This document shows, one piece after another, positions 14,662 to 55,169 of a stretch of DNA of 64,000 nt (its first letter is position 1; the number at the start of each line of letters is the position of its first letter). The notes beneath the pieces were generated by a model, which worked only from the letters and a program-made list of their open reading frames with translations, was not told the DNA's origin and ran no database searches. Made by a program: the position numbers and the translations under genes. This stretch comes from Escherichia phage vb_EcoM-VR5: sequence record NC_028881.1; one strand, given 5' to 3'.

Positions 14662-15183
14662 TTAATAACCTCGGTCCTGACGAGCAAAGTTCTCGGCATT
14701 TTTCAGGTAATACAGTTTAAAGATTTCTTCAGCAGTAAGTCCAAGACCCTGGAACATGTTCAGAACGAAATGGAGAATATCAATCATTTCAAATTTAATT
14801 TCGAGCTGGTCTTCAGGAGAGAGTTCGTCGATACGACGATTACGGAATTCAGCATGCTGAGCTTTCCAAGGCTTCCAGCAACTTGAAGCAGCTTTCTCAC
14901 CATTGCTCATACCACCAAGAGAAGTCAGAAGTTCACGGAATTCATCATCAATATAATCTTTCTGATTACGCAGCCAATCAACAACTTCACCTGCAGTAGC
15001 CAAATCATCAGGGTGACGGTTATATTCAGGTTTATCTTTAGCCAAACGGACCTGTAAAGATTTCTGCATATCAAGCATAACCTGCAGTGGGTCTTTATCT
15101 TCGTGAATCAAGGCATTAAAATAAGCTTCCTCAGCTTTATCAACGCCAGCAATCAAACCACTACACTCATTAAAATGTGCCAT
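14662..15183 (-). CDS. 56: dCTP pyrophosphatase (gp56, MazG-like)
   Basis: 173-aa ORF; size and position as T4 gene 56; RBS AGGAAA. Confidence 0.8.
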   Translation of the reverse strand: MAHFNECSGLIAGVDKAEEAYFNALIHEDKDPLQVMLDMQKSLQVRLAKDKPEYNRHPDDLATAGEVVDWLRNQKDYIDDEFRELLTSLGGMSNGEKAASSCWKPWKAQHAEFRNRRIDELSPEDQLEIKFEMIDILHFVLNMFQGLGLTAEEIFKLYYLKNAENFARQDRGY

Positions 15184-15187
15184 TATA

Positions 15188-15844
15188 TTATTTCCTATTA
15201 AAGTTTTCTATCATTCGTCGATAACAAATATCAGGATATCCATTATCGACAGCTATTTTATTAAATTTGGTGCGTTTAGGTTTATTATTATAAACCCATA
15301 ATTCATAAAGCGCATCATAACTATCCCATATTTCTCCTCGCCTAGGATTTGGTAAACCGTATCGAGGTGAATTTTTACCGCTAAATCTTCCTTTTCGAGC
15401 TTTACTCATATTAGCCTTGGCTTCATCGGATATAATTTTATCTTTATGAGCTAGACGCATTTTGGCTTTAGTTTCTTCTGGGGTCTTTTTGCCTTTAATC
15501 CATGACGGCTTGCCATATCTAGGATTATTTTCACCTGTAACTAATAGTGAATTATTTTCCCTTAATGATGCTATAGTTCTGCTAGTTAATTTAACTCCTT
15601 TATTATATCTCATTAAATTAACGGCATGATGCAGACCTTTTACTTCAGGATACATTTTTGTTAAAAGCCTATGGGCTATAAAGTGCTCTCTTGGTAATAA
15701 AGCCACCAAATTATTTTTATCATCGGAACCATTCATACATTTGGGTACAATATGGTGTTCTTCTGTATAATATGGTAAGGACCGCTTGGTACCTCTTAAT
15801 TTTCCATTAGATATTAATTCATTGTATATTTTTTCATAGTTCAT
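15188..15844 (-). CDS. HNH homing endonuclease (freestanding, Mob-like) with NUMOD-type C-terminal DNA-binding repeats
   Basis: 218-aa ORF; HNH motif EEHHIVPKCMNG...NLVALLPREHFIAH; AT-rich; no SD upstream. Confidence 0.8.
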   Translation of the reverse strand: MNYEKIYNELISNGKLRGTKRSLPYYTEEHHIVPKCMNGSDDKNNLVALLPREHFIAHRLLTKMYPEVKGLHHAVNLMRYNKGVKLTSRTIASLRENNSLLVTGENNPRYGKPSWIKGKKTPEETKAKMRLAHKDKIISDEAKANMSKARKGRFSGKNSPRYGLPNPRRGEIWDSYDALYELWVYNNKPKRTKFNKIAVDNGYPDICYRRMIENFNRK

Positions 15845-15904
15845 GGGATAATTATAAACTGTTTAGATTAAAGCGAATAAATATTAATTTAACAGGAGGA
15901 TAAC

Positions 15905-16105
15905 ATGGGCAGTATTTTTTATCAAATCTGGAAATTGGCCGAAAAGAAAGACAAGAAAATGATGTTAGGTTTTCTTGCGCTAGACGTATTCCTTTGGAAT
16001 CTTTTAGTAGTCCCTGTAGCCGCTAGCCAAGGTGTAGTTTTACCAGCGGTTACAATGGAGCACGTGTTAAGCATAATTGGATTCTTTAGCGGAATTCCTG
16101 CCTAA
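15905..16105 (+). CDS. small hydrophobic membrane protein (66 aa), only plus-strand gene with expression signals
   Basis: ORF with strong SD AGGAGG 5 nt before ATG; late-promoter-like GAATAAATA upstream; convergent with gene 61. Confidence 0.5.
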   Translation: MGSIFYQIWKLAEKKDKKMMLGFLALDVFLWNLLVVPVAASQGVVLPAVTMEHVLSIIGFFSGIPA

Positions 16106-17130
16106 ATCTTGGAATATTTTGAAAGTCGCATTTTTGCCATTAAACCTTGTGCGATATTCTCTTTCATATAAGAAAGGACATCGTTTATATTGGCTTTATC
16201 TTTCATAACCATATCATTTATATCTTTAGAAGGCCATGGAGCCTTGTCCCAGAATAGAACCCTTTCACCGGCATCAACTAGACGTTGCATACGCTTAATT
16301 GTGTCAGGATGACGGGGTTCATTGTCCATTACCCATGCTCTTGTTTCTTTACATGGAACTATTGATAAGTCTAACGACCCACCAGTAATTGCTATTGCAT
16401 TAGGTACAAATAATGAATCTATAGGACCTTCCATTACCCACACCAACTGGCGTTCATCTATCGTATCCATTCCATATATTTTTGTAGCTTGGTCGTGAGC
16501 TTTAATTGTAATATATTTTTGCGGGGCATCTTTACGTAAAGCTCGACCCTGAAAGCTTTCAATTTGTTTATCCTTATTAAAAATAGGAATAACCAAACGA
16601 GGCTCAGGTATTTCTTTAGAATAGGTTCCTGGATTCACTGAGTTAACCAGCGCCGGCCACTCTTTCGTAAACCATAGTCTATTCCATTTGTTTTCGGGGA
16701 TGCATCGCAGAGTTACATATTTGATAATAGGATGGTCTTTAGGCATTCTATCTAATCGTTCACAGAAATTAAGCTTTTCGATGACAGGCATCTTAGCTTT
16801 AATTTTTTCAGATATCTCCACCTTAGGTGTAGCTTGTCTCCCGAACGATTGCTCTTTATGTTTCTCAAGAATATATTCTCGATATAAATCTGGCTCATAT
16901 TCGTATAGATACTTCTTAATTCCTGCTGAATAGTCACAATTAAAACAATGCAACATAATAGAACCATCGTTAGCCGGGTAAGCCCAAAATCGAGCTTTGT
17001 TCTCATCTTTTTGTGAGTCACCACATACACGACAACGACAGTTTAATTTAAAATCACTACCGGTTACTTGTCTGAATTTAGGTTGGTAATTCAAGGCACG
17101 TACAGCAAATTCTTTATCGACATATGACAT
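16102..17130 (-). CDS. 61: DNA primase (gp61)
   Basis: 342-aa ORF; zinc-binding CxxC...CxxC and TOPRIM region; length as T4 gp61. Confidence 0.9.
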   Translation of the reverse strand: MSYVDKEFAVRALNYQPKFRQVTGSDFKLNCRCRVCGDSQKDENKARFWAYPANDGSIMLHCFNCDYSAGIKKYLYEYEPDLYREYILEKHKEQSFGRQATPKVEISEKIKAKMPVIEKLNFCERLDRMPKDHPIIKYVTLRCIPENKWNRLWFTKEWPALVNSVNPGTYSKEIPEPRLVIPIFNKDKQIESFQGRALRKDAPQKYITIKAHDQATKIYGMDTIDERQLVWVMEGPIDSLFVPNAIAITGGSLDLSIVPCKETRAWVMDNEPRHPDTIKRMQRLVDAGERVLFWDKAPWPSKDINDMVMKDKANINDVLSYMKENIAQGLMAKMRLSKYSKI

Positions 17131-51116: not shown

Positions 51117-51326
51117 TCACCGGTTATGTTTTAAAATACTATAAAGCTCTTCAACTTGGCTCGCATCCAGATAAATGACCTCGTCATCTTGTTCCAGGAC
51201 AATCCCACCCTTAACAATATTCCACTCTACTACTTCAACAGTCATATCATCACCGGAACCTGCTAATGTTTCAGGCTCTAAAGCAATAACGCCATTTTCA
51301 GAATTACCACTTGGATCGTATAACAT
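51117..51326 (-). CDS. hypothetical protein (69 aa; trimmed start)
   Basis: ATG with RBS GAGGAAA. Confidence 0.5.
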   Translation of the reverse strand: MLYDPSGNSENGVIALEPETLAGSGDDMTVEVVEWNIVKGGIVLEQDDEVIYLDASQVEELYSILKHNR

Positions 51327-51417
51327 TACAGTTTCCTCGCTAACCATGAAAAGAATAAACCAATTAAAACAGGCCCTACAACCATTGTTAACCAAGCCCA
51401 AGGTTCAAGATAGTAAA

Positions 51418-51675
51418 TCATCTCATGCTCCTATGCCAACAGTTACGTGGCTCACGTTTAAAAATTTCATCATGCATCGCTTGACAACCAACACAATATA
51501 TCACACCCTTTATAGCTTGGCGTCGTGCTTCAGGAATTTTTTCATCGCAGTCAAAACAATATTCAGCGGATTCACGTTCAACAGCTACTTGCTTACGAGC
51601 GTGTACTATAGCGGCCTGGACGACCGCTTCCATTTCGAGCTGTTCGGCTCCGTCCTTAGCAAATCCAACAGCCAT
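51418..51675 (-). CDS. TraR/DksA-type C4 zinc-finger protein
   Basis: CFDC-x17-CVGC. Confidence 0.6.
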   Translation of the reverse strand: MAVGFAKDGAEQLEMEAVVQAAIVHARKQVAVERESAEYCFDCDEKIPEARRQAIKGVIYCVGCQAMHDEIFKREPRNCWHRSMR

Positions 51676-51857
51676 TATGCTTTCAACTCATTAAGATACT
51701 CAACCAAGGCTGCTTTAGAGTTAGCCAAATCTCGTTTACACTGTTCTATCCCAGAATATGAATAGCCTTCGCAATGTTCTACTGCAATATCATAAGAATC
51801 GCGTTCAATAGCAGTAGCGAGTTTAATAATTTTTTCAATCTGTTCAGCGGTTAACAT
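51675..51857 (-). CDS. hypothetical protein (60 aa)
   Basis: ORF. Confidence 0.45.
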   Translation of the reverse strand: MLTAEQIEKIIKLATAIERDSYDIAVEHCEGYSYSGIEQCKRDLANSKAALVEYLNELKA

Positions 51858-53237: not shown

Positions 53238-53810
53238 TCAACTCGTTATTTCTATCCAATGCTTCCTGCATAATGACACGTAAGAATCGTTGCCACCTAT
53301 AGAAACTTGGTCGCCATCCTTAATTGCGATACCATTTTGGATACGAGCTGTCATAGTAGCCTTACGTCCACAATGGCACACACCTTTGTACTCAACGAGT
53401 TTATCTGCTGTAGCTAATAATTCAGCAGAGCCAGGAAACAGTTTACCCTGAAAATCAGTTCTTAGACCGTAACACATGACCGGTATATTATAATTATCTA
53501 CTATCTTTGCCAATTGTTTTATTTGCAAAGGTTCTAAGAACTGTGCTTCATCCACAAATACGCAGTGGATATCTTTTTGAGATTCAGCCCAACGATAGAA
53601 CTCGTATAGGTCCATGTCTGGAGTCACTGCATTAGCCTCTTGGCTAATCCCTATACGAGACGAAATTCTATGGCTTGATTCTCTATTATCTATCGCAGGC
53701 TTTAAAAGGAGTACACCCATACCACGTTCTTTATAGTTATGGGCAGCCGTTAGCAATGAAGAGGTCTTCCCAGAATTCATCGCCGCATAGTGAAACATCA
53801 AACTTGCCAT
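53238..53810 (-). CDS. tk: thymidine kinase
   Basis: 190-aa ORF; P-loop AAMNSGKTS; C-terminal Cys cluster. Confidence 0.88.
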   Translation of the reverse strand: MASLMFHYAAMNSGKTSSLLTAAHNYKERGMGVLLLKPAIDNRESSHRISSRIGISQEANAVTPDMDLYEFYRWAESQKDIHCVFVDEAQFLEPLQIKQLAKIVDNYNIPVMCYGLRTDFQGKLFPGSAELLATADKLVEYKGVCHCGRKATMTARIQNGIAIKDGDQVSIGGNDSYVSLCRKHWIEITS

Positions 53811-54535
53811 TTAGATACAATTCCTCTATAAGAACAATCGGGATAACCTTTACTCAAGGCTATCTTTTTAAACATATACGCCGAGGGTTTATTAGATTCT
53901 TCCCATAGTATTTTCAATTCATCATAATATTTCCAAGTCTCATTTCTAATAGGAGAAGGTTTTCCTTTCATTGCGCCCTGTTTACCAAACATAGGATTCT
54001 TTTCACCCTTTTTAGAATCGCTCATGTTTTTAATAGTAGCACATGAATGCTTAAAGCCTTTTAATTTTTTAGAAGCGAGACCTATTTTAGCCTTATGTTC
54101 ATCCGTAAATCCTATTCTATTCGAATAGTGGTTTGCGCCTTTATTAGAAGTGGTATATTTAGAAGCTTCTATTCTCGCAGCACTCCATTTAACTCCTTTT
54201 TTGGACCTGGACATTTTACATTTAGTTAGCAATGATAACTTAGTTCCTTTCTTTTTGCCGCGTCCGCCATCGGCAAAATTTAAAGAATGCTTTCCATATT
54301 TTAATTTAGCTTTTTCTACTAAAGGAACTTCAGCATCGTAAGCTTCATCTTCAGTTTCAAAGAATTTTAATATACGGGTTTTATAAGGGTGCTTTTTGCA
54401 AATATTTTTAACAACAGTGCCACTTCCAAAATACCCATCAGAAAGATTATCAGTAGAATGTTTTCCTACGTAATAATATTTTGCCTTGAGGGTTTTTATT
54501 ACAGTTAAATAATTATAATGGAATTCCTTTACCAT
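53798..54535 (-). CDS. GIY-YIG homing endonuclease (Seg-like) with NUMOD-type C-terminal domain
   Basis: YYYVGKHS...GYFGSG N-terminal motif; C-terminus similar to HNH endonuclease at 15188-15844; RBS AAGAAGG. Confidence 0.75.
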   Translation of the reverse strand: MVKEFHYNYLTVIKTLKAKYYYVGKHSTDNLSDGYFGSGTVVKNICKKHPYKTRILKFFETEDEAYDAEVPLVEKAKLKYGKHSLNFADGGRGKKKGTKLSLLTKCKMSRSKKGVKWSAARIEASKYTTSNKGANHYSNRIGFTDEHKAKIGLASKKLKGFKHSCATIKNMSDSKKGEKNPMFGKQGAMKGKPSPIRNETWKYYDELKILWEESNKPSAYMFKKIALSKGYPDCSYRGIVSKWQV

Positions 54536-54544
54536 ATTACCTTC

Positions 54545-54727
54545 TTAAAGCGTATTCACGTAAGCAATTAATTCGTTTTCTTTCTCATCAAACTGTTCGG
54601 CGATTTTTTCGTAATCTTCAGCACTCACAGGACCCCATTCATCGTATGATTGCATTCCAGAATTCTCTTCTAGAAGCTCATGGATAAGCTCAAACAATTT
54701 ATCTTTTTGTTCTTTACTTAGGCTCAT
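54545..54727 (-). CDS. hypothetical acidic protein (60 aa)
   Basis: ORF. Confidence 0.45.
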   Translation of the reverse strand: MSLSKEQKDKLFELIHELLEENSGMQSYDEWGPVSAEDYEKIAEQFDEKENELIAYVNTL

Positions 54728-55169
54728 AATCTACCACCACTAAATTAATATCAGGAGTAAACAAATTAATCAATTGATAAACCTTGTCCCAATCACCGCC
54801 AGCAATACCACAGCCAATGCGAGGAATATAAATTCTCGGTTTAAACAAAAGACCCTTTGCAGTACGGTTTAATTCTATCATACAGTTTACTAAAGCACCA
54901 TAATCAAGATTAGGACCTGGTTCATATTGGGTATAAAGATTATAGCAAATTTGCCCATTATTGCCTGTGGCTTGAGTAAATGTTCCAAGTTTTGCAGAAT
55001 CACCCAAATAAGTGGCTTCTCTATCAATGGCAAGAATAGGTGAATAAGCCTTAGCCAATTGACCTGCTACGCCCGAACCCATAGTATGAAAACAGTTACA
55101 CCCATGAGCAACGTTATTACCTTGAAGAAACAGGGCGACGATATCGCCCTTAATATAATCAATAATCAT
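54714..55169 (-). CDS. macro-domain-like protein (putative ADP-ribose binding/hydrolase)
   Basis: GDI...GCNCFHTMGSGVAGQLA resembles macrodomain NAAN/GGGV region; tentative. Confidence 0.5.
   Translation of the reverse strand: MIIDYIKGDIVALFLQGNNVAHGCNCFHTMGSGVAGQLAKAYSPILAIDREATYLGDSAKLGTFTQATGNNGQICYNLYTQYEPGPNLDYGALVNCMIELNRTAKGLLFKPRIYIPRIGCGIAGGDWDKVYQLINLFTPDINLVVVDYEPK

What the first reader, a model, noticed from the sequence alone, without database searches (positions are those of the whole stretch)
53798..54535. GIY-YIG endonuclease next to tk shares its C-terminal domain with the distant HNH endonuclease
The 245-aa Seg-like protein overlaps the start of tk. Its C-terminal about 90 residues (NPMFGK..., ...KILWEESNKPSAYMFKKIALSKGYPDCSYRG) resemble the C-terminus of the HNH enzyme at 15188-15844 (NPRYGK..., ...YELWVYNNKPKRTKFNKIAVDNGYPDICYRR). 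This points to shuffling of DNA-binding modules between two nuclease families in one genome.
Basis: seen in the sequence. Interest (0 to 1): 0.5.

Follow-up and report, generated by a model that had tools for sequence, protein, structure and literature searches.

The report
Two phage homing endonucleases share one tail
Two selfish DNA-cutting genes in this T4-like phage use unrelated cutting domains but the same kind of C-terminal, probably DNA-gripping, module; this mix-and-match design is old, widespread and also seen in phage T4 itself, so the case is real but ordinary.

Summary
ORF 53798-54535(-), 245 aa, has a GIY-YIG nuclease domain and overlaps tk by 13 nt. ORF 15188-15844(-), 218 aa, has an HNH nuclease domain. 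Their C-terminal regions align over about 140 residues (32% identity, E=5e-16). The last ~50 residues carry most of the signal (43% identity, z=19 against shuffles). The N-terminal domains are unrelated.

The window is a JS98-like Dhakavirus. Both genes are free-standing homing-endonuclease cassettes that are present or absent independently in close relatives. One sits just upstream of tk, the other just upstream of gene 56.

The shared region is NUMOD3 repeats plus a ~50-aa three-helix tail that has no Pfam model. A tail profile finds 111 sequence clusters; I kept 107 proteins: 45 GIY-YIG, 38 HNH, 24 unclassified or fragmentary. Some carry 2-3 tandem tails. T4 SegA, SegF (GIY-YIG) and MobD (HNH) also have it.

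The two window proteins are full-length homologues of SegA and MobD. They are not each other's nearest tail relatives and show no DNA-level similarity. So modules were exchanged between nuclease families, but long ago and not in this genome. This is a new member of a known kind, of low to moderate interest.

The parts
53798..54535 (-). Free-standing GIY-YIG (Seg-type) homing endonuclease gene, 245 aa
54260..54535 (-). GIY-YIG catalytic domain (aa 1-92)
53960..54244 (-). Linker with NUMOD3-type repeats (aa 98-192)
   Evidence: Pfam NUMOD3 2.1e-10 at aa 160-185. Short helices at lower pLDDT. Aligns with the HNH protein's NUMOD3 region, z=6.7.
53801..53959 (-). C-terminal ~50-aa three-helix tail module (aa 193-245), which also encodes tk's Shine-Dalgarno and start codon
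   Evidence: 43% identical to the HNH tail, z=19. pLDDT 93-97, helices at 199-213, 219-228 and 237-244. No Pfam hit even at E<=10. Codons TAT AGA GGA (Y-R-G) supply the SD, and AAA TGG (K-W) contains tk's ATG.
53796..54531 (.). Segment present here but replaced by 11 bp in the 98%-identical phage ESCO10 (the mobile cassette)
   Evidence: blastn and alignments. Flanks are 97-100% identical to ESCO10 right up to the junctions.
53238..53810 (-). tk (thymidine kinase), the gene directly downstream and the likely target gene
   Evidence: Pfam TK 1.2e-56. Codons 2-5 differ between seg+ Dhakavirus alleles (ASLM) and the seg- ESCO10 allele (AQLY).
15188..15844 (-). Free-standing HNH (Mob-type, MobD-like) homing endonuclease gene, 218 aa
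   Evidence: ORF. BLASTP to T4 MobD full length 5e-36, MobE 1.5e-27, MobB 3.5e-25. PHROG 655 1.2e-55. Pfam HNH E=0.004 and NUMOD3 2e-6.
15191..15355 (-). C-terminal tail module of the HNH protein (aa 164-218)
   Evidence: 87% identical to the tail of P0003 and 53-57% to tails on both GIY-YIG and HNH proteins.
15197..15846 (.). Segment present here but replaced by 25 bp in phage JS98 (the HNH cassette), immediately upstream of gene 56
   Evidence: An ortholog sits at the same 61/56 locus in Tequatrovirus G50 (79% identity).
14662..15183 (-). Gene 56 (dCTPase/dUTPase), directly downstream of the HNH cassette
   Evidence: Annotation of relatives. Pfam dUTPase_2.

Best explanation
Both genes are free-standing homing-endonuclease cassettes of a T4-type (Dhakavirus) phage. 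Each has an N-terminal nuclease domain: GIY-YIG in the gene next to tk, HNH in the gene next to gene 56. Each nuclease is fused to the same kind of extended 'beads-on-a-string' region, made of NUMOD3 repeats followed by a ~50-residue three-helix, helix-turn-helix-like tail. The inferred mechanism is as follows. The C-terminal region anchors the enzyme on a long, specific site near the start of the downstream nucleotide-metabolism gene in phages that lack the cassette. The nuclease then cuts or nicks nearby, and recombinational repair during co-infection copies the cassette in. The tail is an old, promiscuous module found on many GIY-YIG and HNH endonucleases, including T4 SegA, SegF and MobD. 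The resemblance between the two proteins therefore reflects ancient module exchange between endonuclease families. It does not reflect a recombination event within this genome.
Confidence: 0.8

Rival explanations
1. Recent recombination within this phage lineage moved the DNA-binding region from one endonuclease gene to the other. This is the literal reading of 'shuffling in one genome'.
For: The two genes are the only homing-endonuclease genes in the window, and both carry the module. The alignment is collinear over about 140 residues, starting right after each nuclease domain.
Against: Protein identity is only 32% and there is no significant nucleotide similarity. Each protein is full-length homologous to T4 SegA or MobD, which already have the composite architecture. 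The tk-locus Seg orthologs in three genera already carry the tail. Each tail has closer relatives in other proteins.
Confidence: 0.03
2. The similarity is compositional or chance: lysine-rich repeats of NUMOD3 type without true homology of the tail.
For: Both proteins are Lys/Arg-rich, and NUMOD3 repeats are short and generic.
Against: Composition-preserving shuffles give z=19 for the tail alone, 0 of 2000. A tail-only profile retrieves a coherent family with conserved W, L-x2-LW, KP, F-x2-IA, GYPD and Y-x2-MV-x2-F positions.
Confidence: 0.01
3. The tail is homologous but is not a sequence-specific DNA-binding module. It might instead be a protein-interaction or regulatory domain, for example one that recruits phage recombination or replication proteins or restrains the nuclease. 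Target choice would then reside in the NUMOD3 region or the nuclease domain.
For: No confident structural or profile match to a known DNA-binding domain. The two empty insertion sites share no DNA motif. Tandem copies and tail-only ORFs exist.
Confidence: 0.12

Closest known systems
Phage T4 SegA (GIY-YIG free-standing homing endonuclease, uvsX/beta-gt locus)
   Same: Collinear over the full length with the window's 245-aa protein (30% identity over 240 aa, E=4e-16). Same architecture of Seg-type GIY-YIG, NUMOD3 and tail (tail E=6e-17).
   Different: Different locus and presumably a different target: tk here, uvsX for SegA (PMC2988022). Only about 30% identical.
Phage T4 MobD (HNH free-standing endonuclease, nrdC.11/mobD.1 locus; activity not determined)
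   Same: Full-length homologue of the window's 218-aa protein (35% identity over 248 aa, E=5e-36). It has the strongest T4 match to the tail profile (2e-22).
   Different: MobD's linker has no Pfam NUMOD3, whereas the window protein has NUMOD3 repeats. The locus also differs: upstream of gene 56 here.
Phage T4 SegF ('hybrid' endonuclease between 56 and soc, cuts gene 56)
   Same: A GIY-YIG domain fused to a divergent copy of the same tail (E=2e-7). The T4 review draws it as a hybrid of the two families (PMC2988022). It flanks gene 56, as the window's HNH gene does.
   Different: It lies on the other side of gene 56 and uses the other nuclease family. Its tail is much more divergent, with no direct BLAST hit to the window proteins' tails.
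I-TevI (GIY-YIG) and I-HmuI (HNH) intron endonucleases with a C-terminal helix-turn-helix; NUMOD modules of Sitbon and Pietrokovski 2003 (the I-HmuI structure and that citation are from my own knowledge)
   Same: Same design principle: a nuclease domain, an extended linker with a minor-groove helix (NUMOD3), and a small C-terminal helical DNA-binding module. Modules are shared across nuclease families (PMC2988022; PMC1564403).
   Different: The tail matches neither Pfam I-TevI_DNA-bd nor NUMOD1 and is not related by hhalign (probability 0.1-10%). There is no zinc finger. The genes are free-standing rather than intron-encoded.

Membership tests
GIY-YIG homing endonucleases (T4 Seg type) | GIY-YIG catalytic fold | tested here: met
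GIY-YIG homing endonucleases (T4 Seg type) | Conserved motif residues (GIY Tyr, YIG Tyr/Gly, catalytic Glu, Asn) | tested here: met
   Y9, G24, E69 and N86 are invariant and Y22 nearly invariant in 18 relatives. The equivalent of I-TevI Arg27 was not identified.
GIY-YIG homing endonucleases (T4 Seg type) | Sequence homology to characterised Seg proteins | tested here: met
   BLASTP to T4 SegA 4e-16, SegC 3e-15, SegB 8e-13, SegE 2e-12, SegF 6e-11 and SegD 6e-10.
GIY-YIG homing endonucleases (T4 Seg type) | Free-standing gene with sporadic presence or absence at a fixed intergenic site | tested here: met
   Absent from the 98%-identical ESCO10 with precise junctions. Only 2 of 521 phage records matching the locus cover at least 80% of the 3-kb query, which spans the cassette. 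Orthologs lie at tk in two other genera.
GIY-YIG homing endonucleases (T4 Seg type) | Site-specific double-strand cleavage of the cassette-free allele and homing in crosses | not testable with these tools
   Needs purified protein and phage crosses.
HNH homing endonucleases (T4 Mob type) | HNH (beta-beta-alpha-metal) motif | tested here: met
   The sequence HHIVPKCMNGSDDKNNLVALLPREHFIAH is visible in the ORF. Pfam HNH is sub-threshold (E=0.004, 17.7 bits against a 21.4 cut-off). Full-length or N-terminal BLASTP to T4 MobD, MobE, MobB, MobC and MobA. PHROG 655 1.2e-55. No structure was predicted for this protein.
HNH homing endonucleases (T4 Mob type) | Free-standing gene with sporadic presence or absence at a fixed intergenic site | tested here: met
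   Absent from JS98 with precise junctions. 8 of 686 matching records cover at least 80% of the 2.9-kb query, which spans the cassette. An ortholog lies at the same 61/56 site in Tequatrovirus G50.
HNH homing endonucleases (T4 Mob type) | Site-specific nicking or cleavage and preferential inheritance | not testable with these tools
   Needs experiments.
NUMOD3-containing DNA-binding regions | Match to Pfam NUMOD3 above the curated cut-off | tested here: met
   Seg protein 40.8 bits and HNH protein 28.0 bits, against a 20.4-bit cut-off.
NUMOD1 / I-TevI C-terminal helix-turn-helix (considered for the tail) | Sequence or profile match to NUMOD1 or I-TevI_DNA-bd | tested here: not met
   The tails alone hit no Pfam family at E<=10, while I-TevI hits I-TevI_DNA-bd at 3e-32. 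hhalign of the 121-tail profile against I-TevI and a T4 NUMOD1 set gives probability 0.1-10%.
Helix-turn-helix DNA-binding folds (considered for the tail) | Significant structural similarity to a solved HTH domain | tested here: inconclusive

The most novel reading that the evidence does not exclude
The ~50-residue tail is an uncatalogued, independently mobile DNA-recognition module of T4-like phage homing endonucleases. Its consensus is R-K-x3-W-x2-YDELYxLW-x2-N-x-KP-x4-FRKIAV-x2-GYPD-x-SY-x2-MV-x2-F. It occurs on GIY-YIG and HNH nucleases, including one HNH_3-type protein, in one to at least three tandem copies, and as tail-only ORFs. Its variable helix-3 surface would encode target specificity. 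On this reading, target switching in these elements would proceed mainly by swapping or duplicating this module.
Probability: 0.3. Interest if true: 0.4.

Novelty: new member of a known kind. Interest (0 to 1): 0.25.

Why it matters
It adds a clean natural example of one DNA-binding module class on two different nuclease scaffolds within one phage genome, in two independently mobile cassettes with empty-site relatives available for comparison. More usefully, it delimits a ~50-aa tail domain that no Pfam model covers. That domain is shared by T4 SegA, SegF and MobD and by more than 100 sequence clusters. Defining it would improve annotation of phage endonucleases, many of which are currently 'hypothetical protein'. 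It could also supply compact DNA-targeting modules for engineered nucleases of the Tev-fusion type. It does not change the current picture of how homing endonucleases evolve.

Tried and rejected
1. A word-indexed homologue search with the tail-only alignment returned nothing because the query was too short. Repeating it with the C-terminal halves gave only 25 hits, about 8 of them with the tail. The exhaustive profile search was needed.

2. Sequence search of the PDB with both full proteins found no meaningful relatives.

3. Foldseek of the tail model against the PDB found nothing significant.

4. hhalign of the tail profile against the I-TevI C-terminus and a small T4 NUMOD1 alignment was negative, so I do not file the tail under NUMOD1.

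5. I looked for a DNA motif shared by the two empty insertion sites, as might be expected if homologous tails read similar DNA. The local alignment was no better than shuffles (294 and 443 of 1000 shuffles reached the observed score).

6. DNA-level similarity between the two genes was not significant, which rejects recent gene conversion.

7. Promoter and terminator scans of the Seg cassette showed no enrichment (5 promoter-like sites against 4.8 expected, 0 terminators), and there is no T4 late-promoter box inside the cassette. It looks like a promoter-less cassette.

8. The SegF paper (PMC155333) and the T4 genome review (PMC150520) are not held. The literature statement that SegF is a Seg/Mob hybrid therefore rests on one figure legend plus my memory. 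One literature search returned only irrelevant hits.

9. NCBIfam had no informative match.

Full report
**What is at the coordinates**

ORF 53798-54535 on the minus strand encodes 245 aa. Its last 13 nt overlap the next ORF, 53238-53810. That ORF is thymidine kinase (Pfam TK, E=1.2e-56). ORF 15188-15844 on the minus strand encodes 218 aa and ends 4 nt before gene 56, at 14662-15183.

The window is a JS98-like T4-type phage of the genus Dhakavirus. Its closest record is phage ESCO10, about 98% identical.

**Checking the observation**

BLASTP aligns residues 106-244 of the 245-aa protein with residues 75-216 of the 218-aa protein, at 32% identity and E=5e-16. I scored three segments separately against 2000 composition-preserving shuffles:

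| Segment | Result |
|---|---|
| Last ~50 residues | score 113 against 23+/-5; z=19; 0 of 2000 shuffles reach it |
| Middle (NUMOD3) part | z=6.7; 1 of 2000 |
| N-terminal domains | z=0.3, unrelated |

The shared region is about 140 residues rather than about 90, and most of the signal lies in a ~50-residue tail that is 43% identical.

These are the only two homing-endonuclease genes in the window, and the only two copies of the tail.

**What the two proteins are**

The 245-aa protein:
- It matches T4 SegA over its whole length (30% identity over 240 aa, E=4e-16), and SegB-F in the N-terminal domain.
- Pfam finds NUMOD3 (2e-10) but only a sub-threshold GIY-YIG match.
- The expected Tyr, Gly, Glu and Asn positions are invariant among relatives.

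The 218-aa protein:
- It matches T4 MobD over its whole length (35% identity, E=5e-36), and MobE, MobB, MobC and MobA in the HNH domain.
- It has NUMOD3 repeats and PHROG 655 'homing endonuclease' at 1e-55.

**Both are mobile cassettes**

Compared with ESCO10, the window carries 53796-54531 where ESCO10 has 11 bp. The flanks are 97-100% identical up to the junctions. Compared with JS98, the window carries 15197-15846 where JS98 has 25 bp.

All four presence/absence combinations exist among close relatives, so the two elements move independently:

| Phage | Seg cassette | HNH cassette |
|---|---|---|
| ESCO10 | absent | present |
| IME540 | present | absent |
| ABTNLS3 | present | present |
| JS98 | absent | absent |

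Orthologs of the Seg gene sit at the same place, overlapping tk, in Klebsiella Jiaodavirus phages (61%) and Citrobacter phage Moon (52%). An ortholog of the HNH gene, 79% identical, sits between primase gene 61 and gene 56 in a Tequatrovirus.

Both genes have 33% G+C, against 39% for the window. No promoter or terminator signal stands out in the Seg cassette.

The Seg cassette has taken over the former tk ribosome-binding site and ATG. Its own 3' end supplies a new site for tk. Codons TAT-AGA-GGA (Y-R-G of the tail's last helix) form the Shine-Dalgarno sequence. Codons AAA-TGG (K-W) contain tk's ATG. The stop codon overlaps a second in-frame ATG (TGATG).

**What the shared tail is**

- No Pfam model matches the tail, even at E<=10. 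This holds for T4 MobD, SegA and SegF as well. No Pfam family is common to the 107 tail-bearing proteins.
- A 7-sequence tail profile, searched exhaustively against 1.84 billion representative proteins, found 111 clusters at E<=0.001 and 35 at E<=1e-10.
- After dropping repetitive false positives I kept 107 proteins. I classified their N-termini with profiles iterated from the window's two nuclease domains. The result was 45 GIY-YIG type, 38 HNH type and 24 unclassified, mostly short fragments. One unclassified protein (P0075) looks like the single Pfam HNH_3 hit, judging by its sequence.
- Pfam independently detects both nuclease classes, and NUMOD3 in 33 of the 107.
- Twenty proteins carry two or three tandem tails.
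- One tail-only ORF lies directly after a GIY-YIG + NUMOD3 + tail ORF, next to a gene 39 homologue. It is probably a split gene.
- In T4 itself the profile hits MobD (2e-22), SegA (6e-17) and SegF (2e-7).

**When the sharing arose**

- The two coding regions have no significant nucleotide similarity. The tails are 57% identical at the DNA level.
- The Seg tail's nearest relatives are other GIY-YIG proteins. The HNH tail's nearest relatives outside its own cluster include both GIY-YIG and HNH proteins at 53-57%.
- On a neighbour-joining tree of 96 tails, nuclease class needs 26 changes, against 31.4+/-2.4 for shuffled labels. The nearest neighbour has the same class in only 58 of 96 cases. The alignment is short, so this is only suggestive of many exchanges.
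- The SegA-like and MobD-like full-length architectures exist in T4 and across several genera. The composites therefore predate this genome.

**Comparison with what is known**

The T4 review states that the DNA-binding regions of both phage endonuclease families are beads-on-a-string arrays of small modules. It draws segF as a 'hybrid endonuclease' (PMC2988022). A GIY-YIG phylogenomic survey lists 'different patterns of NUMODs' as the C-terminal regions of homing endonucleases (PMC1564403). Domain shuffling among phage homing endonuclease genes is described for other families (PMC10448857). Another paper describes Mob C-terminal domains as specific to each protein (PMC2790892). So the cross-family tail may be under-appreciated, but the principle is established.

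**Mechanism**

The following steps are inferred, not shown. The NUMOD3-plus-tail region binds a long site near the 5' end of tk (or of gene 56) in cassette-free phages. The nuclease then cuts nearby, and repair copies the cassette in.

Codons 2-5 of tk differ between the Dhakavirus seg+ alleles and the seg- ESCO10 allele. Moon keeps the seg- version, however, so this may reflect the overlapping reading frame rather than immunity to cleavage. The two empty sites share no DNA motif.

**Verdict**

This is a new member of a known kind, with one modest extra: a widespread tail domain that has no Pfam model.

Noticed in passing
window 54723/54724: Relative to ESCO10, IME540 and ABTNLS3, the window lacks about 204 bp that encode a 70-aa ORF. 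The gap lies between the DUF7438 ORF (54545-54727) and the macro-domain ORF (54714-55169), just upstream of the Seg cassette.
   Followed up: partly
window 53798-53830: The last helix of the Seg tail is dual-coded with tk's translation start. Codons TAT AGA GGA (Y-R-G) form tk's Shine-Dalgarno sequence, codons AAA TGG contain tk's ATG, and the Seg stop overlaps a second in-frame ATG (TGATG). The original tk ribosome-binding site and ATG now start the Seg gene.
   Followed up: yes
window 15188-15844 compared with L014:1021-1671: The HNH ortholog in Tequatrovirus G50 is 61% identical in the nuclease domain but 84-88% identical in the NUMOD3 and tail parts. The neighbouring gp56 is 84% identical. 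The cutting domain has diverged more than the DNA-binding part, or has been exchanged.
   Followed up: partly
L011:3363-4606: A 201-aa ORF (P0053) contains two or three tail copies and no nuclease domain. It directly follows, with a 4-nt overlap, a 213-aa GIY-YIG + NUMOD3 + tail ORF next to a gene 39 homologue. It is probably a split multi-tail endonuclease. Other tail-only ORFs (P0047, 52 aa; P0037, 121 aa) were not examined.
   Followed up: partly
window 15140-15183 (5' end of gene 56): Codons 7-9 of gene 56 differ as a block between HNH-bearing phages (window and IME08: AGT GGT TTG) and the HNH-free JS98 (TCT CAA CTG). This could mark the target or immunity site of the HNH enzyme.
   Followed up: no
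window 14662-15844 compared with T4 15606-16785 (L008): Gene 56 is flanked by an endonuclease gene in both phages, but on opposite sides and from different families. T4 has GIY-YIG segF between 56 and soc. This phage has a MobD-like HNH gene between 61 and 56. Both carry the same class of tail.
   Followed up: partly
window 53798-54535 and 15188-15844: Both endonuclease genes have 33% G+C, against 39% for the whole window.
   Followed up: no
window 51175-51765 (+): A 196-aa ORF lies on the plus strand in a region where every other ORF of at least 150 aa is on the minus strand. It has no Pfam match at E<=0.001.
   Followed up: no
L001:3760-4183 (phage IME540): IME540 carries a further annotated 'homing endonuclease' just beyond vs.1, where the window and ESCO10 have none. 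Phage vB_EcoM_FB has a tail-profile hit in a similar region.
   Followed up: no
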